Below, in pieces: positions 13,007-55,324 of a DNA stretch of 64,000 bases. The position numbers and the translations under genes are program-made. The notes beneath the pieces are model-generated. The model worked only from the letters and a program-made list of their open reading frames with translations. It was not told the DNA's origin and did not search any database. Origin of the DNA: a candidate division WOR-3 bacterium (GTDB lineage: Bacteria > Hydrothermota > Tepidihabitantia > Tepidihabitantales > Tepidihabitantaceae); the NCBI GenBank assembly GCA_965649295.1, contig CBFGKH010000006.1, positions 1-64,000 of the forward strand, given 5' to 3'. Within the stretch, counting starts at the first letter, position 1. Every line of letters starts with the position of its first letter.

Positions 13007-14392
13007 ATGAGCCAGAAAGACTCTGCCAAATTGCGCGAGCTGCCCGCAGTTGACCGGCTGCTCGGCGACGAGCGCCTCGCCGACATCCTCGGCCGGCTCC
13101 CCCGCCGTCTCGCCGTCCGCCTCATCCGGCAGCATCTCGACGAACTCCGCCAGAGACTCGCCGCCGGCCAAGCCGAGGGCTTCGACATCGAGAAACTCCG
13201 AAAGGAACTGGCCCGCGAACTACGTCCCAGCCTCACCCGCGCCATCAACGGCCTTGGCATCATCCTCCACACCGGCCTTGGCCGCTCGCCACTTTCCCGC
13301 GCTGCCCGCGAAGCCCTGCTCGACGCGAGCGAACACTTCTGCACCCTCGAAATTGACCTGGCCACCGGTCGCCGTGGCTCCCGCTACCGCCACATCGAAC
13401 CTCTGCTCTGCGAACTCACCGGCGCCGAAGCCGCCATGATTGTCAACAACAACTGCGCCGCCACCCTTCTCATCCTCGCCGGCCTTGCCAGCGGCCGCGA
13501 AGTAATCGTCTCCCGCGGCCAGCTCATCGAAATCGGCGGCTCATTCCGCATCCCCGACGTCATGCGCCAGAGCGGCTGCCGGATGGTCGAAGTCGGCACC
13601 ACTAACCGCACCCACCTCCGCGACTACGAAAACGCCATCACCCCAGAAACCGCCCTCCTCCTCCGCGTCCACACCTCCAACTACCGCATCACCGGCTTCA
13701 CCAAAGAAGTGAGTCTCGCTGAACTCGTCGAACTCGGCCGCAAGCGGGGCATTCCGGTCGCCGACGACCTCGGGTCCGGTGCCCTGATTGACCTCTCCAA
13801 ATACGGCCTACCCAAAGAACCTCTGGTCCAAGAATCAATCGCCACCGGCGCCGACATCGTCACCTTCTCCGGCGACAAACTCATCGGCGCAACCCAAGCC
13901 GGCATCATCGTCGGCCGCCGCTGCTACATTGATCGACTAAAGAAACACCCCCTTACCCGGGCACTGCGCTGTGGCAAACTCACCTACGCCGTGCTCGAAC
14001 GCACCCTCCTCCTCTTCCTCGACGAAGAAAAGGCAGTCCGCGAACACGCCCTGTACCAGCTCCTCCTCAAACCGATACCCCAAATCCAACGCGAAGCCCG
14101 CCAGCTCCTGCGGCGCGTCCAACCGCACCTTACCGGCAAAGCCGAAATCGCCATCCAGCCTGCCAAAGCCGAAATCGGCGGCGGCTCACTCGCAACCGAA
14201 AGCCTCGAAACCCGAGTAGTCGCAATCCGGCCCAAAGACCAGAGTGCCGACGAACTCGCCCGCCGAATGCGAACAAACCGACCGCCGGTCTTTGGTCGAA
14301 TCGAACACGACCAATACCTGCTCGACTTTCGCACCATCCGCCGCGACGAGATACCCATCATCGCCCAAGCCCTGCTCAAAGCACTGACCTGA
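13007..14392 (+). CDS. selA: L-seryl-tRNA(Sec) selenium transferase
   Basis: VNNNCAA, SRGQLIEIGGSFRIPDVM, EVGTTNRTH, DDLGSG, FSGDKL. Confidence 0.96.
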   Translation: MSQKDSAKLRELPAVDRLLGDERLADILGRLPRRLAVRLIRQHLDELRQRLAAGQAEGFDIEKLRKELARELRPSLTRAINGLGIILHTGLGRSPLSRAAREALLDASEHFCTLEIDLATGRRGSRYRHIEPLLCELTGAEAAMIVNNNCAATLLILAGLASGREVIVSRGQLIEIGGSFRIPDVMRQSGCRMVEVGTTNRTHLRDYENAITPETALLLRVHTSNYRITGFTKEVSLAELVELGRKRGIPVADDLGSGALIDLSKYGLPKEPLVQESIATGADIVTFSGDKLIGATQAGIIVGRRCYIDRLKKHPLTRALRCGKLTYAVLERTLLLFLDEEKAVREHALYQLLLKPIPQIQREARQLLRRVQPHLTGKAEIAIQPAKAEIGGGSLATESLETRVVAIRPKDQSADELARRMRTNRPPVFGRIEHDQYLLDFRTIRRDEIPIIAQALLKALT

Positions 14393-43255: not shown

Positions 43256-44881
43256 CTAGGAGACTGGCTCGGCCGCCGCACTGTCCGCCTCTAACCAGGC
43301 CTCGAGAACCATAATCGCGTCACTCGCCGCCGCCTTCACAATCGCCGGCTCACGACTAAACGGCCAAGGCCGGACAATCCGCCGCAGCTCCGGCAGAATC
43401 CGCGTGACCCGCAACCGCGCCAGTCCGGTAATAGCCGCCGCCCGCAGACCAGGCTGAGGATCAGTCAGCACCGACAACAAGAAAGGCACCGCCACCGGAT
43501 TGCCAATCTCGCCCAGTGCCTGCACTACATTCTGCCGAACCAAATCACTCTCATCCTGCAGCCGGTCAAGGAGAGCCATCGTCGCGTGATAGTCACGAAT
43601 CCGGCCGAGTGCCGCTGCTGCAGTAGCCCGCACCACGGCATCCCGATCACGCAGCGCCCCAACCAGCGCCGGCACCGCCCGTGCCTCACAAATCTCACCC
43701 AGCGCCTGAGCCGCCACAACCCGTACGCCCACCGCAGACTCGGCCAGTCCCTGGACCAGCCGCTCACAGGCCCCTTTATGCCGAAGCCGACCCAGTAGGT
43801 CAATCACCCGCACCCGCACCGCGACCCCGGCCTGCCCGAGCAACCGAAACAACGGCTCAATCGCTGCATCTCCCTGCCGCTCCAGACTGTCAGCAGCAGC
43901 CGCCGCAATCATCGGGTCGTCGTCATCCAGCGCCGCAGTCAGCGCATCCGCAGCCCGAGCATGGCGGATGCGACCAAGCGCGGTCGCCGCTGCCAGACGG
44001 ACACAAGCCTCCTCGTCGCGCAAGGCAATAGCCAGCGGGTCAATCGCTGTCGGGTCACCAATTGTGCCCAGTAGCTCGGCCGCAGTGGCCCTGACTACCG
44101 GCGCATCATGCGCCAGCAGCCCGACGACCGGCACGATTGCCGCTTTGCCGCTGGACAAGATTCGCTCACGGGCACTAAGCCGAGCAGCGATGTCGCCACC
44201 AAGCAGAGCCCGAACCAGCGGCTCAATCGCTGCATCACTCACATATCGGAGTGCCGCGGCTGCTGCCTCACGCACGGTCGGATTGGGGTCATCGGCAGCT
44301 AGCCGGGTAAGGGCATCAACCGCACTCCGGCTGCCAATTCGGCCTAAGGCCCGGGCAGCCGCAATCCGCAACGCTGGACTATCATCAGCCAGCTCGTCAA
44401 TCAACGCCTCAGCAGTACGGGGATCAGCAAGCTCGGCTAGAGCCCGGGCGGCCGCAATCCGCACATTCTCATCAAGGTCTCGCAGCAGCTCCAGCAACGG
44501 CGCGACTGTCGGTTCAGTGCCAATCAAACCCAAAGCCGTAGCCAGCGCTGCCCGGACCGCTGGCTCGGGATCAGCAACATGGCTCGCCAAGAACCCAACC
44601 GCGGCCGAAAGCCGCAACCGACCGAGCAGCTCCGGCAACAGTGTGCCCGGCGAACCCTGCCAGTTGGCGATGTACTGCAGTACCGGCCCGGCCGCATCCG
44701 GGCCCAGTCCGACCAGGGCCTCGGCCGCCCTCGTCCGCACTGCCACGTCCGCATCGTCGAGCAACAGCACCAGCGCACCAGCGGCTTCAGCCCCTCCCAT
44801 CCGACGCAGTCTTTCGATCACCCGAATGCGGACTACTGAGTCAGCACTCGCCAGCCCGTTTAGCCAGTCCCTAACCGCCAC
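43256..44881 (-). CDS. HEAT/PBS-lyase repeat protein
   Basis: Many L.D.D..VR..AA.ALG repeats. Confidence 0.9.
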   Translation of the reverse strand: MAVRDWLNGLASADSVVRIRVIERLRRMGGAEAAGALVLLLDDADVAVRTRAAEALVGLGPDAAGPVLQYIANWQGSPGTLLPELLGRLRLSAAVGFLASHVADPEPAVRAALATALGLIGTEPTVAPLLELLRDLDENVRIAAARALAELADPRTAEALIDELADDSPALRIAAARALGRIGSRSAVDALTRLAADDPNPTVREAAAAALRYVSDAAIEPLVRALLGGDIAARLSARERILSSGKAAIVPVVGLLAHDAPVVRATAAELLGTIGDPTAIDPLAIALRDEEACVRLAAATALGRIRHARAADALTAALDDDDPMIAAAAADSLERQGDAAIEPLFRLLGQAGVAVRVRVIDLLGRLRHKGACERLVQGLAESAVGVRVVAAQALGEICEARAVPALVGALRDRDAVVRATAAAALGRIRDYHATMALLDRLQDESDLVRQNVVQALGEIGNPVAVPFLLSVLTDPQPGLRAAAITGLARLRVTRILPELRRIVRPWPFSREPAIVKAAASDAIMVLEAWLEADSAAAEPVS

Positions 44882-44900
44882 CCCTATCCTCTTCTACTGC

Positions 44901-45251
44901 TCACCGCTCTTTCCGACGACCGGTTTCTGGACAGACCTCCGAACGGAGCCAGTCCAGATAGCGTTTAGAACCGACCGCAACCGGCAAGGCAATAAGCTCA
45001 GGAGTATCATAGGGATGCCTGCTCGTCACCGCCGAAAACAGCCGCCGCAAGCGCGAGCCGGTCGTCTTCGCCACCACCAGCCACTCGCGACTGGAGATCA
45101 CACGGCCCTGCCAGCGATAAGTACTCTGAACCGGCCCAACAACCTGCACACAGGCGGCCAGCCGTTCCTCAACAAGCGAACCAGCCAACGAACGGGCCAG
45201 CGCCAGAGTCGGAGTTGTTGTAAGAACAAAGAAATATCCCCTGGCCATCAT
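44901..45251 (-). CDS. cutA: Divalent-cation tolerance protein CutA
   Basis: LVEERLAAC, S.YRWQG, HPYDTPE, YLDW. Confidence 0.93.
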   Translation of the reverse strand: MMARGYFFVLTTTPTLALARSLAGSLVEERLAACVQVVGPVQSTYRWQGRVISSREWLVVAKTTGSRLRRLFSAVTSRHPYDTPELIALPVAVGSKRYLDWLRSEVCPETGRRKER

Positions 45252-45293
45252 CAGATAGTGCCACTAGAAGTGATAAACGTCAAGCCCTATAAT

Positions 45294-45406
45294 GTCATTC
45301 CAAGGAGCCCACTCTACCCAAAATGTCATCTCGAAGAGTGTAGCGACGAGGGATTGCCTCTCCTTTCTCCAAGGAATTCCACGTACGCAGACGCCGGTGG
45401 AATGAC
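45294..45406. repeat. Degenerate REP/MITE-like element with GTCATTCCA/TGGAATGAC ends
   Basis: 9-bp perfect terminal inverted repeat; internal second TGTCAT...GCGACGAG..AT unit. Confidence 0.55.
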
Positions 45407-45470
45407 GGTGCGAATCGCCTCCTTTCAGGGCAATTTGACAGCCGGGCCTCGGCTCCTAGAATGAATAGCA

Positions 45471-46259
45471 ATGACATTGCAGAAACTACTGCCGGCAGTT
45501 CTCATAGCGGCAACCGGAGCGGTGATCCTGCGCTGCTCCGATGCACCGCTGATAACCCGTCAGGCCAGCCGCGTCGTTTTGGCCGAGACGTTCTCGACCA
45601 CTGAGTGAGCGTACTGTGAGGCCGCGGAGCGGTCTTTCGACAGCCTCGGACAGAGCTACGGTGACTCGCTGGTCCACGTGACCTGGTACCAGTCGTTTCT
45701 CCCGCTGCCCATTACCACGCCCGAAGGCGAGGCACGGGCCCTGCGCTACAACGTTCAGAGTATCTGGCCGTCGACCTACTTTGATGGATTCTACAAAGCA
45801 CCAATGGTCTCGGTCGAGGACTCGTTCTATACCGTCTATCGTGACTACGTTGACTTTGCCCGATCCCAGCCGGCAATCCTCGAAATAGGATGCGATACAT
45901 TGACAACCCGGCTTGGTCCAACGAATCTGAGCATCGGCCTCCGGATCACCCCAACCGACTCGGCAGTTGACGGTATGCGGACTCTGCAGCTTGTCGCGGT
46001 AGTATATGAAGACAGTGCTCCTTATCCGTCGTTCAGCGGTGATACCGCCTATGCTCGCTATTGTGCTCGAACCGTCATCGGTGGCGCCTGGGGAGTTCCG
46101 GTCAGTTTCCGTTTTGGTCAGGAGTTCGACACCGTGCTGACCACGCCCCTGGGTAACTGGACAACAGCACGCCTGGGCGCGGCGGTATTTGTTCAGGACA
46201 CGTCGAACCTGCGGGTAATGCAGTCGCTGCTTATCCGCCGGTTCCCGACCGGTCCTTGA
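45471..46259 (+). CDS. Omp28-like lipoprotein, putative selenoprotein (U46-A-Y-C49)
   Basis: Signal peptide with Cys22, RVVLAETFSTTE-TGA(45606-45608)-AYC, in frame with ORF 45678; SECIS-like hairpin GAGGCCG-cggag-CGGTCTT; TTGACA/TAGAAT promoter. Confidence 0.85.
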
Positions 46260-46291
46260 AGAGTAATGTTGCTGATGTTGAGGAGTAGGCA

Positions 46292-46834
46292 ATGAAGCGT
46301 CTGTTTTGGTTGTTGGCTGTTTTGCTTGTGACTATTGCGATGCTCGGCGCGGCCGAGGAGGAAAAGAAGTATCCGAAGGCTCCGGATTTCACACTGAAGG
46401 ACATCAATGGCAAGGAGGTCAGGCTGTCGGAGCTGCTGAAGAACGGGCCGGTCTATCTGGAGTGCTGGGACCTGCCTTGCGTCAACTGCATTGCCGAGCT
46501 TGATGCGCTGGTACCGATCTATGACTCGCTGAAAGAACGCGGACTACAGATCGTCGCCCTGTCGGTGGACAAGCCCGGCGACGCTGCCCGGGTCAAGGCT
46601 TTTGTCAAGAGCAAGAAGTGGCCCTACATCGTTCTGCTCGACCAGCAGTCCAAGGTGAAGAAGGCCTACAGCATCGTCATCAAGCCAACCGCCTATCTCA
46701 TCAATACCGCTGGCGAGATCGTCTATACCCACATCGGCTATAAGAAGGGCGATGAAAAGAAGATTCGCGATGAGTTTCTGCGCTGGTTGCCCGAAAAGCC
46801 GGCTGCCGATGGGCCGGCGACCAAGGAGGAGTAG
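46292..46834 (+). CDS. TlpA/peroxiredoxin-like thiol-disulfide oxidoreductase, exported
   Basis: Signal peptide, APDFTL, WDLPCVNC, SVD, PTAYLI. Confidence 0.9.
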   Translation: MKRLFWLLAVLLVTIAMLGAAEEEKKYPKAPDFTLKDINGKEVRLSELLKNGPVYLECWDLPCVNCIAELDALVPIYDSLKERGLQIVALSVDKPGDAARVKAFVKSKKWPYIVLLDQQSKVKKAYSIVIKPTAYLINTAGEIVYTHIGYKKGDEKKIRDEFLRWLPEKPAADGPATKEE

Positions 46835-48326
46835 GCTGGGAGTCGGTTTTCGGTTCTGTCTTGTTGCCGGCCTGTTGCTGGCTATCGTCGGAGCGACTGA
46901 GCTGACGATTCAGGGTGTCAACCGGGCCGAGTTCTGGGCCTATCAGGAGAACTGGGCCACCAGCATTGAGGACAAGCTCGACCTGAACATCGGCTATGGA
47001 GACCTTGGTGCCGAGCTTGGTCTCTTTCTTTTTGAACCTTCCCAGCCCTGGACCGGCCTCCGCAAGCCGCTGCGGCTGCTCGACTATACGATTGCCTACA
47101 GCCCAGAGCAGTTCGAGCTGCTCTATGGCAAGTTCTTTCAGACGTTCGGCAAAGGACTGGCCCTGCGTGCCTATGCCGATGACGATTTCCGCCACTATAA
47201 GAGCCTGCACGGCCTACGCGGCACTGCCCATTTACCGTTTTCGACCGACATTGTAGTATTGGGCGGCCGGCTGCGCGAAATATTCTTCCAAGAGAACACC
47301 TACAAACTGCTGAATGCGGCTGACACCGGGTTCCAAGTTGTCGGCGCCGACCTTGAATCGCGGCCTCAAGACTGGCTGGGTTTCGGCGGACGTTATGTTC
47401 GCATCAATCGCGACTCGACCAAGGACCCGACACCGAAGGCTTTTACTGAACTATTTGGCGGCAATCTCGCCACGACCCTTGGGCCGGTTGACCTCTACGG
47501 CGAATACTGCCGCCGGCTTGGCACAAGACCGGGCATTGGCGGCCGGGAGACCGGCTACGGACTCTATCTGATCGGCACTGCTGCCTTTTCTGGTTACTCG
47601 CTGCTCGGTGAGTATCTCGACTACTACAACCTTGCCTTCCCGACCGGCACCTATCACTTCAACGACCCACCCACCCCAATCAAGTCCGGCGTAGCGCTGA
47701 ACCGGGGCGAAGATGAGCGCGGGTTTAGCATCGGCGCAACCGCCACCCCTTGGAGCACGCTCTATCTCGAAGCTGACTACGGCCGGCTGTATCGCCACAA
47801 AAATGCCGACGCTGGCGCAGTCGAGTGGGAAGGCAAAGCGCGCTACTCAGTGGGAGCGGACTGGACGTTTGAGGCAAAGTTCAATCATATGGTTCAGGAG
47901 AATGTTGAGCTGCACGTGCTCGATCGGGTTACTGATAAACCGACGATTCATGTCAACTATCTTCTCGGCGAGCACAGTTTTGCCCTCGAGGCCGAGTACA
48001 ATTGGGTCTATGAGGAACGCGACGACACGCCCGGTCGGGTAGCCGACACGATGCGCTATCACGAAACAGCAGTTGCCTTGAGCTACGGGTTCGGGGAAGC
48101 GCTGCTTTTCACTGCCGGCTGGCAAGGGGTGGACATGAAGCTGGACCGTCGCTACGCTGGCCAGCAGTCCTGGCCGATGTTTGAGGTGGTCTGGAATATC
48201 AACGAGCAGAACGTCCTGCGCTGTCGGATTGGCGCCGAGCGCGGTGGCTACACCTGCTCTGGTGGCGTCTGTCGGTTTGAATCGCCGTTCACTGGCGCCA
48301 AACTGCAACTTATCAGCCGGTTCTAG
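46809..48326 (+). CDS. Outer-membrane beta-barrel, DUF6029-like
   Basis: FQTFGKGLALR, amphipathic strands, C-terminal GGYTCSGGVCR...F; start uncertain. Confidence 0.75.
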   Translation: MGRRPRRSRLGVGFRFCLVAGLLLAIVGATELTIQGVNRAEFWAYQENWATSIEDKLDLNIGYGDLGAELGLFLFEPSQPWTGLRKPLRLLDYTIAYSPEQFELLYGKFFQTFGKGLALRAYADDDFRHYKSLHGLRGTAHLPFSTDIVVLGGRLREIFFQENTYKLLNAADTGFQVVGADLESRPQDWLGFGGRYVRINRDSTKDPTPKAFTELFGGNLATTLGPVDLYGEYCRRLGTRPGIGGRETGYGLYLIGTAAFSGYSLLGEYLDYYNLAFPTGTYHFNDPPTPIKSGVALNRGEDERGFSIGATATPWSTLYLEADYGRLYRHKNADAGAVEWEGKARYSVGADWTFEAKFNHMVQENVELHVLDRVTDKPTIHVNYLLGEHSFALEAEYNWVYEERDDTPGRVADTMRYHETAVALSYGFGEALLFTAGWQGVDMKLDRRYAGQQSWPMFEVVWNINEQNVLRCRIGAERGGYTCSGGVCRFESPFTGAKLQLISRF

Positions 48327-48345
48327 TCTTTGGACAGGTGACAGT

Positions 48346-48483
48346 ATGAGGCGAAGAATCACATTTGTCGTGCTAGCGGTAGTCGGGGTTGCTGCCATCA
48401 TCCTTGGCATCCGGTTCGGCGACCCCGAGACAATTCACCGCTTTGCGGCCCAGATATGACTATCCTGCATGGGGCTCGTGTAG
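48346..48483 (+). CDS. CD1871A-like small membrane protein, putative selenoprotein (U38-L-S-C41)
   Basis: MRRRITFVVLAVVGVAAIILGIRFGDPETIHRFAAQI-TGA(48457-48459)-LSCMGLV-TAG; hairpin GGGCT-cgtgt-AGCCC. Confidence 0.85.
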
Positions 48484-48503
48484 CCCACGAATGGCGGTAA
48501 CCA

Positions 48504-49763
48504 ATGGCTAAGCGTCGAATCGCTCCACACCGCATCGTCCAGGTCCTCTTCACCGTCGCCATCAACAGCTACATCCTGGCCTATGTCCAGCAGAAGGTGC
48601 TGTATCAAGGCGTGCTCAAGTCAATCCCCCAGCCGGTTCTCAACTGCTACGGCGGCCCGCTCTCGGTCTTTGCCTGTCCGATTGGCTCTACTCAGCAGAT
48701 GATTGGCCAGCACATTGTTCCCTGGCTGCCGCTGGGGATTTTTGTGGTGGTCGGTGCGTTTGTCGGTCGGGCTGCGTGCGGCTGGCTCTGCCCGCTCGGC
48801 CTGTACCAAGACCTGCTCTACAAGCTCCGGGTTGGGCCCCGGGCCAAGGCCAGACGCTGGCTCACGTTTGGCGTGATTGCCACAATCGCTGCTGCTATCA
48901 GCGCGGCGCTGGTCATTTTTGTCCGTCTCCCGGCTCTCAAAGTATTTGGCTATGGCTGGCTGCCCTTCACTCTGGCTGTGCTCCTCGTCGCCATTCGGGG
49001 CAAACTTGCCCTGCCCGCCCGGGTCTGGCTTGGAGGTTGGCTTGCCGCAATCGGACTTGGCCTGCTTGTCTGGTTCAGGTTCGAACCAGGGTTTGGCGTT
49101 GTGACTGCTGCAATCGGCATGGTGGTGCTCGGGCTGGCCGGCCGCTGGTTTGCCGCAGTGGTGGCGGCTGTTGCTGCGTTTGTGCTGACGTCAGTGGGGC
49201 CGGCGTTCGCGATCGGCCCGCTTTCAGGAGTGGCACTCCGGCTGGTGCTAGTCGCGGTCGCGCTAGGTCTGCCGCTGCTGCTTGATGTACTTCTTCGAGT
49301 CTCGCTGCCGTCGAGCCTCCTCAAGTTTGCGTTCCTAGTCCTGATTGCGGGCGTGGTGGCGTATGTCACTGCCGAACCCTGGTTCTGTAAGCTCTGTCCG
49401 CACGGCACGTTCGAGGCCGGCATCCCGCTTGTCCTCTGGGACCCAGTCAATGCCCTGCGCGGGCTGGTCGGCTGGCTCTACTGGGTGAAGATTGGGCTGC
49501 TGCTGGTGCTGGTCGTTGCCGCCATCGCTATCAAACGGCCCTTCTGTCGGATTATCTGCCCGATTGGCGCCATCTATTCGGTCTTCAACAAAGTAAGCCT
49601 GCTCCATTTGAAAAAGACCGAGGGCTGTACCAACTGCGGGCTCTGCCAGCGCATCTGCCCGATGGACATCGAGCCGCAGCGCGCTCCAAATCAGCTCGAG
49701 TGCGTCCGCTGTTTTGAGTGTGCTTGGCGCTGTCCCCGGTCGGGCCTGAAGATCCGGGTCTAG
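48504..49763 (+). CDS. Membrane 4Fe-4S binding protein (NapH/MauN-like)
   Basis: CGWLCP, FCKLCP, FCRIICP motifs, two C-terminal CxxCxxCxxxCP motifs, many TM helices. Confidence 0.88.
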   Translation: MAKRRIAPHRIVQVLFTVAINSYILAYVQQKVLYQGVLKSIPQPVLNCYGGPLSVFACPIGSTQQMIGQHIVPWLPLGIFVVVGAFVGRAACGWLCPLGLYQDLLYKLRVGPRAKARRWLTFGVIATIAAAISAALVIFVRLPALKVFGYGWLPFTLAVLLVAIRGKLALPARVWLGGWLAAIGLGLLVWFRFEPGFGVVTAAIGMVVLGLAGRWFAAVVAAVAAFVLTSVGPAFAIGPLSGVALRLVLVAVALGLPLLLDVLLRVSLPSSLLKFAFLVLIAGVVAYVTAEPWFCKLCPHGTFEAGIPLVLWDPVNALRGLVGWLYWVKIGLLLVLVVAAIAIKRPFCRIICPIGAIYSVFNKVSLLHLKKTEGCTNCGLCQRICPMDIEPQRAPNQLECVRCFECAWRCPRSGLKIRV

Positions 49764-49805
49764 CCCACCATTGCCGGCGGCCTCGCCCTGGCTACAATTG
49801 TGCCC

Positions 49806-50693
49806 TTGAGAAAACCAGCATGGCTTCGTGCCCGTCTTGCTGGCGGGCAGCAGTTCGAGCAAGTGAACGAGCGGCTGAACCGCTACGGTCTGCACACGGT
49901 CTGTTCGCAGGCGCGGTGTCCGAACCTGGCCGAGTGCTGGAATAGCGGCACCGCCACTTTTCTTATTCTCGGTGATACCTGCACCCGCCACTGCCGATTC
50001 TGCTCGGTCCGTACCGGCAACCCGCACGGCAACGTTGACAGAACCGAGCCCGGTCGGCTCGCAGCCGCCGTGGCCGAATTGGGCCTGGGCTATGTTGTGC
50101 TGACATCGGTTGACCGGGACGACCTGCCAGACCTCGGAGCCGAGCTTTTTGCAGAAGCGGTGAGGAGCATCAAGGGAACAAGAACAGTAGGCCGGTCCCT
50201 CGTTCCGCTAGTTGAAGTACTCACGCCCGACTTCGGTGGCAGAGCAGAGCTGCTGCGCCTGGTGGTTGAAGCCGGGCCGGATGTGTTTGGCCACAACCTC
50301 GAAACAGTGGCGCGACTGAGTCCACGCGTCCGCGACCCGCGCGCCTCCTACCAGCAATCCCTTGCCGTGCTGGCAACACTGAAAAGGCTCAACCCGGCAC
50401 TATTGACCAAAAGCAGCCTTCTCGTCGGGCTGGGCGAGACTGACGAGGAAATACTCCAGGCACTGCGCGACCTCCGTTCGGTAGGCTGTGACATCGTCAC
50501 TATCGGCCAGTATCTGCAGCCGGCCCACCACTGCCTGCCGGTCGCGCGCTATCTGCCGCCTGCAGAGTTTACAGCGCTGGCCGAGGCGGCACGGGCACTC
50601 GGGTTCAGACAGGCCTTCTGCGGGCCGCTCGTCCGCAGTTCCTATCACGCTGCCGAAATTGCGAGCTTGGCAGCGCCGACCAGCACCAGTTGA
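49806..50693 (+). CDS. lipA: Lipoyl synthase
   Basis: CSQARCPNLAEC, CTRHCRFC, RSSY; TTG 49806 lies 7 nt after TACAAT (ORF track starts at 49800). Confidence 0.96.
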   Translation: MRKPAWLRARLAGGQQFEQVNERLNRYGLHTVCSQARCPNLAECWNSGTATFLILGDTCTRHCRFCSVRTGNPHGNVDRTEPGRLAAAVAELGLGYVVLTSVDRDDLPDLGAELFAEAVRSIKGTRTVGRSLVPLVEVLTPDFGGRAELLRLVVEAGPDVFGHNLETVARLSPRVRDPRASYQQSLAVLATLKRLNPALLTKSSLLVGLGETDEEILQALRDLRSVGCDIVTIGQYLQPAHHCLPVARYLPPAEFTALAEAARALGFRQAFCGPLVRSSYHAAEIASLAAPTSTS

Positions 50694-52090
50694 TGGAGAG
50701 CAGCACCGCCGACAAAACACCGCCTGACCAAAGCCTGACCCCGGCCGCAGTTCGACGCGGACTGACCGTCTCGATTATCGAAGGCTCGTTTGCCACCCTC
50801 TACGCCACGCTCGCCGGCGGAATGTTTCTCAATGGACTGGCGCTGCTGCTCGGCGCCAACTCGTTCGGCATCGCCCTGCTTTCAGCAATACCGGCGCTGG
50901 TGACCGGCTTCGGATTCTTGGCTGGCTACCTCGTCCGTCAAGTCGGCGAGCGCAAGCGACTGGTCATCTGGACCGCCGGGTTTGGCCGGGCAGTCTTTGT
51001 CGTGCTGGTACCACTGCTCCTGCTGCGAGCAAAGGTACCGCTGGCACTCCTCTTTGCGACACTGGCCATATCAAGCATCCTGATGACGGTTGCCGGCACG
51101 ACCTGGCAGTCATGGATATCCGACCTGGTGCCGGATGAACGTCGGGGCCGGTTCTTTGGCCTACGCAACGCCATTCACGGGTTTCTTGGCGTGGCTACCG
51201 CCTATCTTGCCGGCCGCGGCATGGATGCCCTGAAGCTGCGCGGACTGGAGGCCACCGGCTATGGCCTGGCCTTCGGCCTGGCAGTGCTGTTTGGCCTTAT
51301 CTCAACACTGCTGCTGCGTCAGCCCGAACCGCGGATGGCCCCAAAACCAGCAGTGGGTCTGCGCGAGCTGCTCTTCGGCCCGCTATCTGAACCGCAGTTT
51401 CGGAAGTTTACCATCTTCCTCGCTGCCTGGTTCCTCACCGGCACCCTGGCATCGCCCTTCTACATCGTCCACCTGATGAAGAATCTGCATTTCTCGTTCA
51501 CCGCCATTGGTGTCTATTCGCTGGTGAGCGGCGGCAGTGGCGTGCTCTTTCAGCTCCTCTGGGGCCGGGCCATTGACCGGTTCGGCTCGCGACCGGTGAC
51601 CGTTCTCAAATTCTCGCTTGTCGGCATCATGCCCTTGCTCTGGGTCTTTGCCACGCCCTCGTTCCGGCTGCCAATCTGGATTGACGCGCTGATGAATGGC
51701 CTAGTCTGGTCTGGCGGCAGCCTCGGACTGTGGAACCTCCTGCTCGACCTCGCCGACAACCCCGCCCGCAAAGAGAGCTACTTCGCCATCTACTCGGTTG
51801 TGACCGGGCTTGGCGCATTCCTTGCCTCGCTCTTTGCCGGAGCCATTGCCCAAGCACTCTCCCAGTTCCACCTTACCATTCTCGGACGGACATTCGTCAA
51901 CTATCATGTAATGTTTCTCGCCGCCGGACTCAACCGGTTTCTGGTGCTGCCGCTGCTGCTCCGTGTCCAGGAACGCGACTCGAAACCGGTACGTCACGCG
52001 GTCCGGGCAATCGTCACCACTGCCCTGTGGCGGCTGAACGCCGGCAAGGATATTTTGCTCGATACCCTCGGCATCCGGCGCCAGGACTAG
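50690..52090 (+). CDS. MFS transporter
   Basis: About 12 TM segments, WISDLVP..RRGRFFG, WGRAIDRFG. Confidence 0.88.
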   Translation: MMESSTADKTPPDQSLTPAAVRRGLTVSIIEGSFATLYATLAGGMFLNGLALLLGANSFGIALLSAIPALVTGFGFLAGYLVRQVGERKRLVIWTAGFGRAVFVVLVPLLLLRAKVPLALLFATLAISSILMTVAGTTWQSWISDLVPDERRGRFFGLRNAIHGFLGVATAYLAGRGMDALKLRGLEATGYGLAFGLAVLFGLISTLLLRQPEPRMAPKPAVGLRELLFGPLSEPQFRKFTIFLAAWFLTGTLASPFYIVHLMKNLHFSFTAIGVYSLVSGGSGVLFQLLWGRAIDRFGSRPVTVLKFSLVGIMPLLWVFATPSFRLPIWIDALMNGLVWSGGSLGLWNLLLDLADNPARKESYFAIYSVVTGLGAFLASLFAGAIAQALSQFHLTILGRTFVNYHVMFLAAGLNRFLVLPLLLRVQERDSKPVRHAVRAIVTTALWRLNAGKDILLDTLGIRRQD

Positions 52091-52178
52091 TCCTGCCTTT
52101 GACAGCTATCGCCGGGCGGCGATAATGTTCTCAATCCGCGGGCGTTTCCCAAAACCTCCGCAACAAAAGGAGCGTTCT

Positions 52179-53225
52179 ATGAAGAAGCTGTCCGTAGTAG
52201 CAATGCTCCTCGCAGCAGCGACGCTCGGCCTGGCGTTTGACCGCGTCGTCGTCATCGAGGAAGCATACCAAGAGGACTGAGGCACTTGCGTCGCTGCCAG
52301 TTCGGCAGTTGACCAGATCTGTTTCAACAATCCTGAGCGCGTCGCCGCCGTGCAGTGGCATGTCGACGCTGGTTACCCACAGTATTGCGCCGAGGCGCGC
52401 GCCAAGTGGTACCAGTATCCGCCGCCCTACAACGGCAGCTACGCCACACCCTGGGCCTGGATTGACGGCAAGAGCCGCGGTTACACCTACACCCAGTGGG
52501 CAAGCTACGTTACCTCACGGCTGGCAGTGCCCACCGACATCAGACTTGACCTGTCCGGCGAGTACAACCCAGCCACCCGAACCGGTACCCTTGTCGCGGT
52601 GATGTTCAACAGCGGAATGATGCCGCTCAACGCGGCCCTGCAAGTGGCAATCACCGAGGACAGTATCAACTATACCGGTCCCAACGGCGACCCTTGGCAT
52701 AACCACGTCTGCCGCGACTACGTGCCCGACCAGAACGGTTCACCGGTCTTGATTCCGTCGGGCGGCTATGACACGGTCACCGTCAGCTACACATTGAGCG
52801 CGGGCTGGCGCGAGCGGTTTGTCAAAATCGTCGCCTATGTCCAGAGCACCACTACCCAGCCCGACTCGTCCCGTCCGGTCTATCAGGGAGCCAGCGCGCC
52901 AGTGCTCTCCTTTGTCGGCGTTGCCGAACCGCGCATCCCAGACTCTTTCTACGACAACCTGACCGTGACTGCGGGGCCAAACCCGTGCCCGACCAGTGCC
53001 GAGTTTTGCTTCACCGGCCGGCCAGGCCAGAGCTACCGCCTGACCATCTTCGCTCCCGACGGCAGCCGGGTGCGCGAGTTCACCGGCACAATCACCACCG
53101 GGCAGAACAAGCTCAACTGGGACAGAACCGATACCCACGGTCGCAAGGTCAGCCGCGGCATCTATGGCTACCGGCTGGCTGCAACCGGCTGCGCCGCCAC
53201 TGGCAAACTAGTCATTACCGACTAG
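52179..53225 (+). CDS. Omp28-like secreted protein with FlgD/T9SS-type CTD, putative selenoprotein (U34-G-T-C37)
   Basis: AAGGAG RBS, signal peptide, DRVVVIEEAYQED-TGA(52278-52280)-GTC, TPWAWIDG, HNHVCRD; hairpin GCTGCC-agttc-GGCAGT. Confidence 0.88.
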
Positions 53226-53243
53226 TCTCGACCCTCACTTCTT

Positions 53244-53269
53244 GCGGGGCAGGCTGATGCCTGCCCCGC
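53244..53269 (+). terminator. Hairpin after the first Omp28-like paralogue (copy at 54458-54483)
   Basis: GCGGGGCAGG-N6-CCTGCCCCGC. Confidence 0.7.
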
Positions 53270-53392
53270 TGCCATTGGTCAGGATAAGGATTAGCCAGTG
53301 TTGATTGACTGAGTGCCGGCATAGCCTAGAATAGAACCTGCTACGTTAAGGTGCTGTCCCGCACCAACGGACAAACTGTCAGGAGGCTTGGC

Positions 53393-54439
53393 ATGAAAAG
53401 ACCGTCCGCAATCATCGCGCTGCTCGCTGTCGCGACGCTGGCCGCCGCGTTTGACCGCGTCGTCGTCATCGAGGAAGCATACTGGGAAGGATGACCTACC
53501 TGTCCGGCTTCCAGCCGTGCGCTGGACCAGATAGCAATAGACTATGCCGGCTACGTCGCTGCGATCGAGTGGCACGGCGTATCCGGATATCCGTTATACT
53601 CGCCTGAGGCGCGGAATAAGTGGCGTCAGTACCCACCAACCGCACCACCCAACTCCTACTACACACCTTGGGCCTGGATTGATGGCGTGAGCCGCGGCTC
53701 TGCCTACAATAGTTGGAGCGGTTATGTGAGCCAACGCATCCTCGTCCCGAGCGACATCCGCATGACCACCACCGGCACCTACAACCCCAGTACCCGCCAA
53801 GGCACTATCACCGTCGTCCTGTTCAACAGCGGAATGATGCCGCTCGACGCGGTGCTGCATCTGGCGATTACCGAAGACAGCCTGTACTACGCCGCCCCGA
53901 ACGGCGACCAGTGGCACAATCACGTCCTGCGCGACTACGTGCCGACTGAGACCGGCACCCCGGTTTCGGTTCCGTCCGGCGGCTACGATACGGTAACACT
54001 CAGTTACACAATCGGTGCCGGCTGGGTAGAACGGATGTGTGCGCTCGTCACCTATGTCCAGGGTCCACTACAGCCCGACTCGTCGCGGCCAGTATATCAA
54101 GGTGGCGTGGCACCGCTGCTCTCCTTTGTCGGTGTTGCCGAGCCGCGCATCCCAGACTCTTTCTACGACAACCTGACCGTGACTGCAGGGCCGAACCCGT
54201 GCCCGACCAGTGCCGAGTTCTGCTTCACCGGCCGGCCAGGCCAGAGCTACCGCCTGACCATCTTCGCTCCCGACGGCAGCCGGGTGCGCGAGTTCACCGG
54301 CACAATCACCACCGGGCAGAACAAGCTCAACTGGGACAGAACCGATGCCCACGGTCGCAAGGTCAGCCGCGGCATCTACGGCTACCGGCTGGCTGGAACC
54401 GGCTGCGCCGCCACTGGCAAACTGGTCATTACCGACTAG
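53393..54439 (+). CDS. Second Omp28-like secreted paralogue, putative selenoprotein (U34-P-T-C37)
   Basis: AGGAGG RBS, signal peptide, DRVVVIEEAYWEG-TGA(53492-53494)-PTC; same length (1047 nt) and same TGA codon as its paralogue; hairpin TCCAGC-cgtgc-GCTGGA. Confidence 0.88.
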
Positions 54440-54559
54440 TCTCGACCCTTGCTTCTTGCGGGGCAGGCTCCGTCCTGCCCCGCTTACTGTCCATTGACAG
54501 CTACCGGCCGACTGCTATATTCAGCCGCAGAACCGAACCCAACCAAGGAGACAAGAACA

Positions 54560-55324
54560 ATGAGACGTTTTCTGAGCATAGTTGCTCTGTCAGCGCTAGT
54601 CCTGTTCGGCTGCGGCAAGACAACCGTCGGCAAGGGCCGGATTGTTGACGTGCCGCCAATTCCTGACGGCGAGCTGAACCGCTACCAGATGTTCCTCAAC
54701 GGTGAGCCGAACGGCCAGTTCGAAATGATTGCCCGGCACGATATATTCAAGGAACGACCGGCCTGGCGTCTGGACATCGTGGCTCGCACCGCTGCTGCCG
54801 GCCTACAGACGACTGACTCCTCAGTAGTCTATGTCACCCGCGACAGTCTGGTGCCACTTTCGAGCTTCCGGTTCGTGCGAACCGGCAATGCCCTGATTGC
54901 GACCGCTGCTAACTACGTGGCCGAAGGCGTGGCAGTTACCACTTGGGCGGCCGGCGAGGAGAAACAAAGAATGCTGCCTCGCACCGGCTGGAGCTACGAC
55001 ACCGACCAGCTCACATTCCTGTGCCGAGCTTTGCGTATCTCGGCTGACAGGCCGGTGAGCATTCAGGTCGTAAGTCCAATGGGTCCACCTTCGGGCGGCA
55101 TCGTCTTCGAAGGAAGAATTGGTGCTCTCGCTGACCAGACTATTACCGTTCCCGCCGGGACGTTCGACTGCAACCGGGTAGTGATGAATATCGGCCCGCA
55201 CGTAGTTCAGGTCTGGTACGAAAAGACCGGTGCGCGGCGAATGATCCGCTACGAACAGCCCGGTACCGGCATAACAATTGAGCTAGTCTCGACCGAACGT
55301 TATGTCGAAGAAAGCAATTCCTGA
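54560..55324 (+). CDS. DUF3108-like lipoprotein
   Basis: AAGGAG RBS, lipobox LFGC, ITVPAGTFDC motif. Confidence 0.75.
   Translation: MRRFLSIVALSALVLFGCGKTTVGKGRIVDVPPIPDGELNRYQMFLNGEPNGQFEMIARHDIFKERPAWRLDIVARTAAAGLQTTDSSVVYVTRDSLVPLSSFRFVRTGNALIATAANYVAEGVAVTTWAAGEEKQRMLPRTGWSYDTDQLTFLCRALRISADRPVSIQVVSPMGPPSGGIVFEGRIGALADQTITVPAGTFDCNRVVMNIGPHVVQVWYEKTGARRMIRYEQPGTGITIELVSTERYVEESNS

What the first reader, a model, noticed from the sequence alone, without database searches (positions are those of the whole stretch)
45471..54439. Four hidden UxxC selenoproteins in one envelope redox cluster: candidate selenium-based trans-envelope electron relay
Seen: four genes each carry one in-frame TGA three codons before a Cys: 45606 (UAYC), 48457 (ULSC), 52278 (UGTC), 53492 (UPTC). 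Reading through restores the start, signal peptide and family motif that the ORF track cuts off. The genes lie with an exported CxxC TlpA, a beta-barrel ending in CSGGVC and a NapH-like membrane polyferredoxin, and selA is 31 kb away. Known: Omp28-like and CD1871A-like proteins normally have CxxC at these positions, and Sec usually replaces the first Cys. Inference: electrons could pass from the membrane Fe-S protein and Sec peptide to TlpA, then to the barrel and Sec lipoprotein, and on to surface Omp28-like proteins. I know the parts separately but cannot confirm whether this full Sec-rich combination has been described.
Basis: partly seen in the sequence, partly recalled or inferred. Interest (0 to 1): 0.92.

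Follow-up and report, generated by a model that had tools for sequence, protein, structure and literature searches.

The report
Four selenoproteins in envelope redox cluster
An uncultured WOR-3 bacterium really does encode four hidden selenocysteine proteins inside one conserved gene cluster for cell-envelope thiol chemistry, including a tiny membrane selenopeptide paired with an iron-sulfur membrane protein that may feed electrons to the cell surface.

Summary
All four read as selenocysteine: the genome has tRNA-Sec, selA, selB and two selD. The TGA is kept in orthologues across the phylum, more distant homologues carry Cys at the same column, and each TGA is followed by a hairpin.

The genes sit in a conserved cluster:
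- an Omp28-like lipoprotein (Sec)
- TlpA
- a DUF6029 barrel of about 24 strands with an invariant Cys pair
- a 45-aa membrane peptide (Sec)
- a NapH-like polyferredoxin
- LipA
- an MFS transporter
- two surface-sorted Omp28-like proteins (Sec) built like HBP35

New here: the [U/C]xxC peptide lies directly upstream of the NapH-like gene in 67 of 75 assessable loci from many phyla. TlpA is often adjacent, which makes this pair a candidate membrane electron source.

Not new: NCBIfam already curates "Omp28-related selenoprotein" and "CD1871A family". This scan has already found the TlpA-barrel-UxxC cassette in other phyla.

The order and direction of the proposed electron relay remain inference. 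The one complex prediction gave no answer. Verdict: real, conserved and uncharacterised, a new variant of a known kind.

The parts
45435..45462 (+). promoter-like site (11 of 12) just upstream of gene 1
   Evidence: 10 sites were found in the region against 2.6 expected from shuffles
45471..46259 (+). Gene 1: Omp28-like lipoprotein, Sec at codon 46 (TGA 45606-45608, motif U-A-Y-C). A conserved Cys at residue 22 (C-S-D-A-P) looks like a lipobox. No C-terminal sorting domain.
   Evidence: Weak NCBIfam Omp28 hits. 29 of the 30 best phylum matches carry one TGA. A homologue with CTYC is in L082.
45618..45636 (+). SECIS-like hairpin of gene 1: 8-bp stem, loop GGA, 12 nt after the UGA
   Evidence: 97.5% of cells paired over 30 distinct sequences; 5 of 8 pairs show compensatory change; 0 of 500 shuffles reach the observed value.
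46292..46834 (+). exported TlpA/ResA-like thiol:disulfide oxidoreductase, active site W-D-L-P-C-V-N-C
   Evidence: AhpC-TSA 77.8 bits, Redoxin 58.9 bits. The CxxC is present in all 40 distinct active-site strings printed.
46809..48326 (+). DUF6029 outer-membrane beta-barrel of about 24 long strands. An invariant Cys pair (C-S-G-G-V-C) sits on a short hairpin before the last strand. The start is uncertain; the ORF opens at 46752.
   Evidence: Model pLDDT 88.6, pTM 0.82.
48346..48483 (+). Gene 2: 45-aa single-pass membrane peptide, Sec at codon 38 (TGA 48457-48459), C-terminus Q-I-U-L-S-C-M-G-L-V. Related to the CD1871A family.
48471..48487 (+). SECIS-like hairpin of the peptide gene. It spans the TAG stop codon, and its 3' arm is non-coding.
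   Evidence: 95.8% of cells paired over 16 sequences; 2 of 6 pairs compensatory; 0 of 500 shuffles reach the observed value.
48504..49763 (+). NapH-like membrane polyferredoxin. It has four conserved Cys pairs (C48/C58P, C92xxxC96P, C295xxC298P, C348xxxC352P) and two C-terminal 4Fe-4S motifs. In this family of genomes it carries an extra membrane insert of about 165 aa.
49800..50693 (+). lipoyl synthase LipA. Kept in the cluster only in the window's own taxonomic family.
   Evidence: LipA within 2 kb in 17 of 79 NapH-like loci
50690..52090 (+). MFS transporter. Its start overlaps the LipA stop by 4 nt.
52099..52126 (+). promoter-like site (11 of 12) upstream of gene 3
52179..53225 (+). Gene 3: Omp28-like protein with signal peptide, thioredoxin fold, beta-sandwich and C-terminal sorting domain. 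Sec at codon 34 (TGA 52278-52280, U-G-T-C).
52294..52308 (+). SECIS-like hairpin of gene 3 (CUGCC-AGUUC-GGCAG)
   Evidence: 41 of 45 family members pass the hairpin rule, against 241 of 1711 control Cys codons.
53305..53332 (+). promoter-like site (10 of 12) upstream of gene 4
53393..54439 (+). Gene 4: paralogue of gene 3 (74% identity in alignment A1). Sec at codon 34 (TGA 53492-53494, U-P-T-C).
   Evidence: The 3' 300 nt are 94% identical to gene 3.
53510..53526 (+). SECIS-like hairpin of gene 4 (UCCAGC-CGUGC-GCUGGA)
13031..14374 (+). selA (selenocysteine synthase), part of the Sec machinery
   Evidence: 575.6 bits, cut-off 267.9

Best explanation
The cluster encodes an envelope thiol/selenol redox system with four true selenoproteins.

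Shown:
- The four TGAs are decoded as Sec.
- The gene set is conserved in order in the window's taxonomic family: Omp28-like lipoprotein, TlpA, DUF6029 barrel, [U/C]xxC peptide, NapH-like protein, then surface-sorted Omp28-like proteins.
- Its core persists in more distant lineages.
- The peptide and the NapH-like protein form a tight gene pair across many phyla, often with abutting or overlapping reading frames.

Inferred:
- The NapH-like Fe-S protein and its peptide form an inner-membrane module. It carries reducing equivalents from cytoplasmic 4Fe-4S clusters to a [Sec/Cys]xxC pair at the outer face of the membrane.
- That pair keeps periplasmic TlpA reduced.
- TlpA in turn serves the thioredoxin-fold Omp28-like proteins: the lipoprotein on the periplasmic side and the two sorted proteins on the cell surface.
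- The wide barrel with its invariant Cys pair may be the contact point across the outer membrane.
- The final substrate is unknown. A disulfide, peroxide, chalcogen or metal species at the cell surface is possible.
For: Sec decoding:
- Machinery is complete.
- The TGA is conserved in orthologues: 148 of 150 listed matches for genes 3/4, 29 of 30 best matches for gene 1, and 15 Sec plus 5 Cys peptides in 20 fetched loci.
- Cys stands at the same column in P0034, L082 and the distant peptides.
- Downstream hairpins show compensatory change. The hairpin rule is met by 41 of 45 gene 3 family sites against 14% of control Cys codons.

Fold:
- The gene 3 model (pLDDT 90.5) places U34xxC37 at the N-terminus of helix 1 of a thioredoxin fold. 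Its best solved match is HBP35, 5y1a, at E 3.8e-14.

Synteny:
- All 20 fetched loci have TlpA, barrel and NapH-like in the window's order.
- In an independent sample of 79 loci drawn through the NapH-like protein, the peptide lies directly upstream in 67 of 75 assessable loci. TlpA is within 3 kb in 44, the barrel in 34, and an Omp28-like gene within 8 kb in 31.
- 13 loci have TlpA without the barrel. Several loci that the tblastn screen had scored as having neither TlpA nor barrel have an Omp28-like gene with a sorting or dockerin domain directly after the NapH-like gene.

Other:
- The barrel Cys pair is invariant in 43 distinct C-termini, down to 23% identity.
- The barrel model has about 24 long strands and resembles usher, TonB-dependent and MtrB barrels.
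- Two PorU-like genes and many proteins with the same C-terminal domain support surface sorting.
Against: - No experiment or structure links any two of these proteins.
- The direction of electron flow is not determined by sequence.
- The membrane topology of the NapH-like protein is ambiguous. A simple hydropathy scan does not call the first helix, so the side of the C48/C58 pair is unsettled.
- The genome has a CcdA homologue, the usual donor to TlpA-type proteins. It sits in a separate ArsR-methyltransferase-CcdA-thioredoxin-permease operon.
- 32 of 79 NapH-like loci show neither TlpA nor barrel within 3 kb; some of these are short contigs. The Dictyoglomota loci lack the peptide.
- 17 of the 20 loci fetched first were chosen because gene 1 and gene 3 hits lay on one contig. 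That set is therefore biased for their linkage, though not for the genes between them.
Confidence: 0.55

Rival explanations
1. Same parts, opposite direction. The NapH-like protein and peptide act as a thiol oxidase, a functional analogue of DsbB or VKOR. It draws electrons from TlpA and the Omp28-like proteins and passes them through Fe-S clusters to quinone or a cytoplasmic acceptor, so the system forms disulfides in exported proteins.
For: By recall, not tested here, NapH itself is a quinol-linked membrane protein whose potentials suit electron uptake from thiols better than thiol reduction. The same conserved neighbourhood fits either direction.
Against: By recall, TlpA/ResA-type proteins are reductants in characterised systems. 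By recall, Sec in the N-terminal position of a UxxC motif is typical of reductases and peroxidases. The cytoplasmic two-cluster ferredoxin domain suggests low-potential input. In 2 of the 24 loci whose neighbours were scanned, a Fer4_20 + pyridine-nucleotide oxidoreductase gene lies next to the NapH-like gene.
Confidence: 0.15
2. Linked genes without a through-envelope chain. The NapH-like/peptide/TlpA module serves ordinary periplasmic needs such as repair of oxidised proteins or cofactor maturation. The Omp28-like selenoproteins work on their own as surface antioxidants or as binders of metals or chalcogens. The barrel is a porin or export channel.
For: - The NapH-like/peptide pair occurs with TlpA but without barrel or Omp28-like genes in 13 loci, and with neither TlpA nor barrel in 32.
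- An OPX paper likened DUF6029 to Wzi-type polysaccharide porins by HHpred (PMC9603273, passages read).
- A second selenopeptide and Cys-type Omp28 paralogues lie beside yedF-like and selD genes elsewhere in the genome. This hints at a chalcogen link.
Against: - The barrel Cys pair is invariant wherever the barrel accompanies TlpA.
- The full gene order is kept across genera and, in its core, across families.
- Omp28-like genes also follow the NapH-like gene directly in Zixibacteria.
- The selD-adjacent arrangement was not found in the selD loci of 29 relatives.
Confidence: 0.25
3. The TGAs are true stops, pseudogene lesions, assembly errors or a reassigned codon, and the upstream frames are open by chance in a GC-rich genome.
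For: GC-rich genomes have many long chance ORFs. A crude genome-wide screen for a TGA near a Cys plus a hairpin gave 592 mostly meaningless candidates. Single-sequence folding z-scores downstream of the four TGAs are not significant.
Against: - The TGA position and the flanking protein sequence are conserved across more than 100 genomes.
- Homologues have Cys at the column.
- The hairpins covary.
- The Sec machinery is complete, including selD genes that themselves carry a TGA.
- Gene 1 and the Cys-type peptides end on TGA, so TGA is also a normal stop.
Confidence: 0.02

Closest known systems
NCBIfam NF045500 'Omp28-related selenoprotein'. Earlier notes of this scan equate it with 'hypothetical protein GOS_C' of Zhang & Gladyshev 2008 (PMC2398784).
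   Same: An exported protein with a thioredoxin-like fold, UxxC at the first active-site position and many Cys homologues. [quoted passage not shown]
   Different: The window proteins score 46.9, 37.6 and 25.4 bits against a cut-off of 200, so they are a sister group and not members of that model. I could not check that GOS_C and NF045500 are the same family. Genes 3 and 4 add a C-terminal sorting domain. Gene 1 is a lipoprotein.
HBP35 of Porphyromonas gingivalis (PDB 5y1a)
   Same: It is the best solved structural match to the gene 3 model (E 3.8e-14, TM 0.55/0.60). By recall, HBP35 has an N-terminal thioredoxin domain and a type IX secretion C-terminal domain.
   Different: Sequence identity is 13%. 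The window proteins have Sec in the active site. The haem-binding role of HBP35 (recalled) was not tested here.
NCBIfam NF040920 'CD1871A family CXXC motif-containing protein'
   Same: A small single-pass peptide with a C-terminal CxxC motif. 14 of 37 Cys-type relatives match the model at E <= 0.01. One database homologue carries this name.
   Different: The window peptide scores 24 bits against a cut-off of 32 and has Sec in place of the first Cys. Two full-text searches returned no paper: 'CD1871A' alone, and 'Omp28' with 'selenoprotein'. I did not search for Sec forms of small membrane peptides under other names.
NapH / MauN / NosR / CcoG membrane polyferredoxins
   Same: Fer4_5 membrane modules with CxxxCP motifs and a C-terminal pair of 4Fe-4S motifs.
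   Different: It scores 44.3 bits against a cut-off of 213 for the NapH/MauN model. It has two further conserved Cys pairs (C48/C58P and C295xxC298P). It always comes with the small peptide and often with TlpA. No nap, nos or cco genes appear among the genes scanned in the cluster, 43256-55321.
CcdA/DsbD to TlpA/ResA/CcmG periplasmic reducing pathway
   Same: A TlpA-type exported reductase that needs a membrane electron donor.
   Different: The donor gene next to TlpA here is an Fe-S protein with a peptide, not CcdA. The only CcdA in the genome lies in an unrelated operon.
MtrCAB trans-outer-membrane electron conduit
   Same: A wide barrel that could let a periplasmic and a surface redox protein meet. 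MtrB (6r2q_B) is among the structural matches of the barrel model.
   Different: The similarity is generic (TM about 0.43). There are no cytochromes here, and the chemistry would be thiol/selenol exchange. This is an analogy only.

Membership tests
Bacterial selenoprotein gene | In-frame UGA conserved among orthologues, with conserved coding sequence on both sides | tested here: met
Bacterial selenoprotein gene | Homologues with Cys at the aligned position | tested here: met
   P0034 has CDGC, L082 has CTYC, and peptides have CLSC
Bacterial selenoprotein gene | Stem-loop shortly downstream of the UGA (SECIS), with G in the apical loop | tested here: met
   The numerical rule used (loop 15-25 nt after the UGA, G in the first two loop bases) is adapted from recall of bSECISearch criteria.
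Bacterial selenoprotein gene | Genome encodes tRNA-Sec, SelA, SelB and SelD | tested here: met
   all are above the curated cut-offs
Bacterial selenoprotein gene | Selenium incorporated into the protein | not testable with these tools
   needs 75Se labelling or mass spectrometry
Pfam PF11551 Omp28 | Score above the gathering cut-off of 34.9 bits | tested here: met
   Gene 3 scores 48.3 and gene 4 scores 40.7. Gene 1 has no Pfam hit, so it does not meet the cut-off. Its Cys paralogue on contig C1 reaches 35.5.
NCBIfam NF045500 Omp28-related selenoprotein | Score above the cut-off of 200 bits | tested here: not met
   46.9, 37.6 and 25.4 bits
NCBIfam NF040920 CD1871A family | Score above the cut-off of 32 bits | tested here: not met
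   24 bits, E 2.7e-5. 14 of 37 Cys relatives match at E <= 0.01.
NapH/MauN family (TIGR02163) | Score above the cut-off of 213 bits | tested here: not met
   44.3 bits, C-terminal part only. Pfam Fer4_5 scores 50.1 against a cut-off of 22.
TlpA/ResA-type thiol:disulfide oxidoreductase | Thioredoxin-like AhpC-TSA/Redoxin domain with CxxC and an export signal | tested here: met
   AhpC-TSA 77.8 bits and Redoxin 58.9 bits. The CxxC is conserved. The specific ResA and TlpA NCBIfam models are below their cut-offs. The signal peptide was judged by eye from the sequence.
Pfam PF19494 DUF6029 | Score above the cut-off of 27 bits | tested here: met
   67.3 bits
Type IX secretion cargo (C-terminal sorting domain) | Recognisable CTD, and a sorting machinery in the genome | tested here: inconclusive
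   FlgD_ig scores 21.7 and 20.2 bits, below the cut-off of 27. Many homologues carry a precomputed PF18962 hit. Two PorU-like genes score 369 and 340 bits, below the cut-off of 420. The best structural match is HBP35.

The most novel reading that the evidence does not exclude
The cluster is a complete trans-envelope thiol/selenol electron conduit, a sulfur/selenium counterpart of the Mtr cytochrome conduit. A NapH-like Fe-S protein with a 45-aa selenopeptide replaces CcdA/DsbD as the inner-membrane electron exporter. TlpA carries the electrons across the periplasm. A 24-stranded barrel with an invariant Cys pair lets an Omp28-like selenolipoprotein hand them to surface-anchored selenoproteins. 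These then reduce an extracellular substrate.
Probability: 0.2. Interest if true: 0.9.

Novelty: new variant of a known kind. Interest (0 to 1): 0.66.

Why it matters
Three reasons, if the reading holds.

- How diderm bacteria keep thiol enzymes reduced at or beyond the outer membrane is unexplained. This cluster names a full candidate parts list. It also names a specific, testable membrane donor that is not CcdA/DsbD: the peptide plus the NapH-like protein.
- It shows that the CD1871A-like peptide family (at least 577 sequence clusters, nearly all annotated 'hypothetical') has Sec forms in WOR-3 and in two Chloroflexota loci.
- Standard gene calling truncates or misses all four genes. Most database homologues of genes 3 and 4 start just after the TGA, so annotation of this phylum systematically loses the active sites.

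Tried and rejected
- Complex prediction. A natural Cys-type peptide with its own short NapH-like partner (the L125 pair, with alignments A6 and A7) gave 'no answer': score 0.06 against a mark of 0.32. It counts neither for nor against binding.
- Single-sequence folding downstream of the four TGAs gave non-significant z-scores. A per-sequence rule with a control was used instead.
- A genome-wide screen for further Sec genes (a TGA near a Cys plus a hairpin) gave 592 candidates. It was too noisy for a selenoproteome count. It did turn up the second selenopeptide.
- Rfam found nothing in the window at gathering thresholds.
- A simple hydropathy scan could not fix the topology of the NapH-like protein.
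- I tested whether the selD/yedF-adjacent selenopeptide is a conserved arrangement. It was found in 0 of 29 relatives' selD loci, with flanks of about 1.5 kb.
- Literature searches returned nothing for 'Omp28' with 'selenoprotein', for 'CD1871A', for 'NapH-like' with 'TlpA', and for 'selenoprotein' with 'WOR-3'. 'DUF6029' appears only in one paper on polysaccharide export porins. The library lacks most subscription journals, so absence there is not proof.
- The idea that TGA is reassigned to Trp or Gly was rejected: homologues have Cys at the column, and TGA also ends genes.

Full report
**1. The observation**

- 45606-45608, followed by A-Y-C
- 48457-48459, followed by L-S-C
- 52278-52280, followed by G-T-C
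- 53492-53494, followed by P-T-C

Under table 11 each gene is cut in two or loses its start. Reading TGA through gives four products:
- a 262-aa protein (gene 1)
- a 45-aa peptide (gene 2)
- two 348-aa proteins (genes 3 and 4)

The three larger proteins begin with a signal peptide and the 45-aa peptide with a membrane segment. Promoter-like sites lie just upstream of three of the restored starts. They match 11 of 12 positions before genes 1 and 3, and 10 of 12 before gene 4. The region holds 10 such sites against 2.6 expected from shuffles.

**2. Are they selenocysteine codons?**

The genome is 2.28 Mb in 19 contigs, 100% complete by marker genes. It holds the whole Sec machinery, all above curated cut-offs:
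- a tRNA-Sec of 72.9 bits, called SeC/tca by ARAGORN
- selB at 345 bits
- selA inside the window at 13031-14374, 576 bits
- two selD genes, each with one in-frame TGA of its own

The comparative evidence is strong.

- *Genes 3 and 4.* Gene 3 was searched against 272 genomes of the phylum, and 162 had a match. Of the 150 matches listed, 148 contain one in-frame TGA; one of those also has a TAG. The two without a stop begin at query residue 53 or 86, past the Sec column. A further 223 matches were not listed. Among 120 database homologues, most are 285-307 aa long and begin just after the TGA, so gene callers truncated them. Those that carry a source name are mostly called 'Omp28-related outer membrane protein [candidate division WOR-3]'. 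One full-length protein, P0034, has C-D-G-C at the aligned position.
- *Gene 1.* Of the 30 best matches, 29 carry one TGA; the exception is a partial hit. Weaker paralogues mix TGA forms with forms that have no stop, read here as Cys forms. A homologue in L082 reads C-T-Y-C.
- *The peptide.* It was found between the barrel and NapH-like genes in all 20 fetched cluster loci. Fifteen read ...Q-I-U-L-[SG]-C-M-G-L-[VG]. Five, from more distant families, read ...V-M-C-L-S-C-M-G-L-Q-Q.

Each TGA is followed by a hairpin.

- *Gene 1.* The stem is 8 bp, with 97.5% of cells paired over 30 distinct sequences. Five of the 8 pairs show compensatory change. None of 500 shuffles, and no slid register, comes near.
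- *The peptide.* The stem is 6 bp and spans the stop codon, so its 3' arm is non-coding. It is 95.8% paired, with 2 of 6 pairs compensatory.
- *Genes 3 and 4.* The hairpin occurs in two registers, so I used a per-sequence rule. 41 of 45 sites pass it, against 241 of 1711 (14%) control Cys codons in long ORFs of the same genome.

TGA is also an ordinary stop here: gene 1 and the Cys-type peptides end on it. I regard Sec decoding of all four as established short of protein chemistry.

**3. What the proteins are**

- *Genes 3 and 4.* They hit Pfam Omp28 (48.3 and 40.7 bits; cut-off 34.9) and, weakly, FlgD_ig. The AlphaFold2 model of gene 3 has pLDDT 90.5. It shows a thioredoxin fold with U34-x-x-C37 at the start of the first helix, then a beta-sandwich, then a C-terminal Ig-like domain. 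Its best solved match is HBP35 of Porphyromonas gingivalis, 5y1a, at E 3.8e-14. The genome has two PorU-like genes, one of them in the window at 27219-30440. Many of its proteins carry the same C-terminal domain. Surface sorting is therefore likely but not proven.
- *Gene 1.* It is a divergent relative of the same thioredoxin-plus-sandwich unit. It gives weak NCBIfam Omp28 hits and about 25% identity to gene 3 orthologues by tblastn. It has a conserved lipobox-like Cys and no sorting domain.
- *TlpA.* It is an AhpC-TSA/Redoxin protein with an invariant CxxC.
- *The barrel.* It is a DUF6029 protein (67.3 bits). Its model (pLDDT 88.6) has about 24 long strands and resembles usher, TonB-dependent and MtrB barrels at TM 0.4-0.55. 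The pair C-x-G-G-x-C sits on a short hairpin before the last strand. It is invariant in 43 distinct sequences, down to 23% identity.
- *The 419-aa membrane protein.* It has Fer4_5 modules and a NapH-like C-terminus with two 4Fe-4S motifs. It is far below the NapH model's cut-off. Sixteen Cys are invariant across nine diverse relatives, eight of them in four pairs outside the cluster motifs.

**4. Conservation of the cluster**

In 20 regions fetched from relatives, all have TlpA, barrel, peptide and NapH-like in the window's order. Other genes are less constant:
- LipA follows in 15 regions.
- The MFS gene follows in 13.
- Omp28-type sorted genes lie within the fetched stretch in 17.

One caveat applies. 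I chose 17 of these regions because gene 1 and gene 3 hits shared a contig. That biases the set for their linkage, but not for the genes in between.

Five loci from more distant families keep the sorted Omp28 genes, the lipoprotein, TlpA, the barrel, a Cys-type peptide and a short NapH-like protein. They lack LipA and MFS, which therefore look like passengers or a lineage-specific addition.

**5. The new point: a peptide / NapH-like pair**

An independent sample was drawn through the NapH-like protein from one genome per species. It gave 79 loci. The record titles that name a lineage include Stahlbacteria, Zixibacteria, TA06, Latescibacterota, Chloroflexota, Ignavibacteria, Thermodesulfobacteriota, Sedimentisphaerales, Firmicutes and Dictyoglomota. 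The counts from that sample are:
- A short single-pass peptide ending [U/C]-x-x-C-[MILV]-G-[LIV] lies directly upstream in 67 of 75 assessable loci. 48 are Cys forms and 19 are Sec forms.
- Two of the Sec forms come from outside the window's lineage, by record title: an Anaerolineae MAG (L146, U-L-S-C) and a Chloroflexota MAG (L172, U-Y-S-C).
- TlpA is within 3 kb in 44 of 79 loci, 13 of them without any barrel.
- The barrel is within 3 kb in 34.
- An Omp28-like gene is within 8 kb in 31.

In many loci the peptide's stop abuts or overlaps the NapH-like start. In Zixibacteria, Omp28-like genes with sorting or dockerin domains directly follow the NapH-like gene. In two loci a Fer4_20 + pyridine-nucleotide oxidoreductase gene is adjacent. 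The six Dictyoglomota-type loci lack the peptide and have unrelated neighbours.

The peptide family is large: 577 clusters at E <= 0.001, nearly all 'hypothetical', one named 'CD1871A family CXXC motif-containing protein'. 14 of 37 Cys-type members match NCBIfam NF040920. The window's own peptide scores 24 bits against a cut-off of 32.

**6. How it most likely works**

*Shown:* four Sec genes; a conserved gene order; a tight peptide/NapH-like pair; invariant redox motifs in every component; a thioredoxin fold for the Omp28-like proteins.

*Inferred:*
- The Fe-S protein and its peptide pass reducing equivalents from cytoplasmic clusters to a [Sec/Cys]xxC pair outside the membrane.
- This pair reduces TlpA.
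- TlpA serves the lipoprotein and, through or at the wide barrel with its Cys pair, the surface-sorted selenoproteins.

The points against are these:
- The direction of flow is open; an oxidising, DsbB-like role is a real rival.
- Topology is unresolved. A hydropathy scan misses the first helix.
- A CcdA exists elsewhere in the genome, in an ars-like operon with its own thioredoxin.
- 32 of the 79 NapH-like loci show neither TlpA nor barrel nearby.
- No substrate is indicated.

The one complex prediction allowed gave no answer and is not evidence either way.

**7. Comparison with what is known, and novelty**

- Omp28-related selenoproteins are already curated as NF045500. A Trx-like UxxC family, 'GOS_C', was reported in 2008 (PMC2398784, passages read). 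That the two are the same family is a statement of earlier notes of this scan, which I could not verify.
- The window proteins fall far below NF045500's cut-off, so they are a sister group rather than members.
- Earlier notes of this scan describe the TlpA + DUF6029 barrel + exported UxxC cassette on other DNA, from Marinimicrobia and Zixibacteria. They include the invariant barrel Cys pair and the HBP35 likeness. I reproduced both independently here.
The full-text searches I ran returned no paper on either.
- I therefore file the finding as a new variant of a known kind.

**8. Verdict**

The interest lies in a concrete, testable candidate for a DsbD-independent electron supply to envelope and surface thiol/selenol enzymes, and in the systematic mis-annotation of these genes.

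Noticed in passing
G000 contig C1, about 318.4-323.8 kb (locus L190:4353-9817, minus strand): A second selenopeptide of the same family (...S-S-G-I-U-I-P-C-M-G-L-G-K) lies here. It is flanked by two Cys-type Omp28 paralogues: a CSYC lipoprotein and a 596-aa CTYC protein with Omp28 and MAM domains. It is followed by a yedF-like TusA+DsrE gene and a selD that itself carries Sec. No NapH-like gene is adjacent, and the genome has only one of that family.
   Followed up: partly
G000 contig C1:355394-358244: The second selD copy, which also has one in-frame TGA, lies immediately next to selB.
   Followed up: no
window 49800-52090: LipA and an MFS transporter overlap by 4 nt. They sit inside the redox cluster in all sampled genera of the window's taxonomic family but not in more distant lineages. 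A link between lipoate (a dithiol) and this system is conceivable but untested.
   Followed up: partly
window 43256-45251 (minus strand): A CutA1 divalent-ion tolerance gene and a 541-aa HEAT-repeat gene lie divergently upstream of gene 1. The same pair sits there in several related genera (for example L089, L090, L095, L096, L103-L107).
   Followed up: partly
window 52857-53156 and 54071-54370: The last 300 nt of genes 3 and 4 (the sorting domain) are 94% identical, while the preceding 263 nt are 72% identical. This suggests gene conversion or a recent partial duplication.
   Followed up: partly
window 27219-30440: A PorU-like gene (340 bits to the type IX sortase model, below the cut-off of 420) lies in the window. 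A second copy is on contig C9. About 20 proteins in the genome share the same C-terminal domain.
   Followed up: no
G000 contig C7:103994-107620 (L221): The only CcdA/DsbD-type gene of the genome sits in an operon of ArsR, SAM methyltransferase, CcdA, thioredoxin and ArsP-like permease.
   Followed up: partly
L146 (Anaerolineae MAG) and L172 (Chloroflexota MAG), directly upstream of their NapH-like genes: These are Sec forms of the small peptide (U-L-S-C and U-Y-S-C) in Chloroflexota-labelled MAGs, outside the window's lineage. Sec seems to have replaced Cys in this family more than once.
   Followed up: no
L131:3595-5163 and L143:8843-10459: A Fer4_20 + pyridine-nucleotide-disulfide oxidoreductase gene, like the small subunit of glutamate synthase, lies next to the peptide/NapH-like pair. 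It is a possible NAD(P)H-linked electron donor.
   Followed up: no
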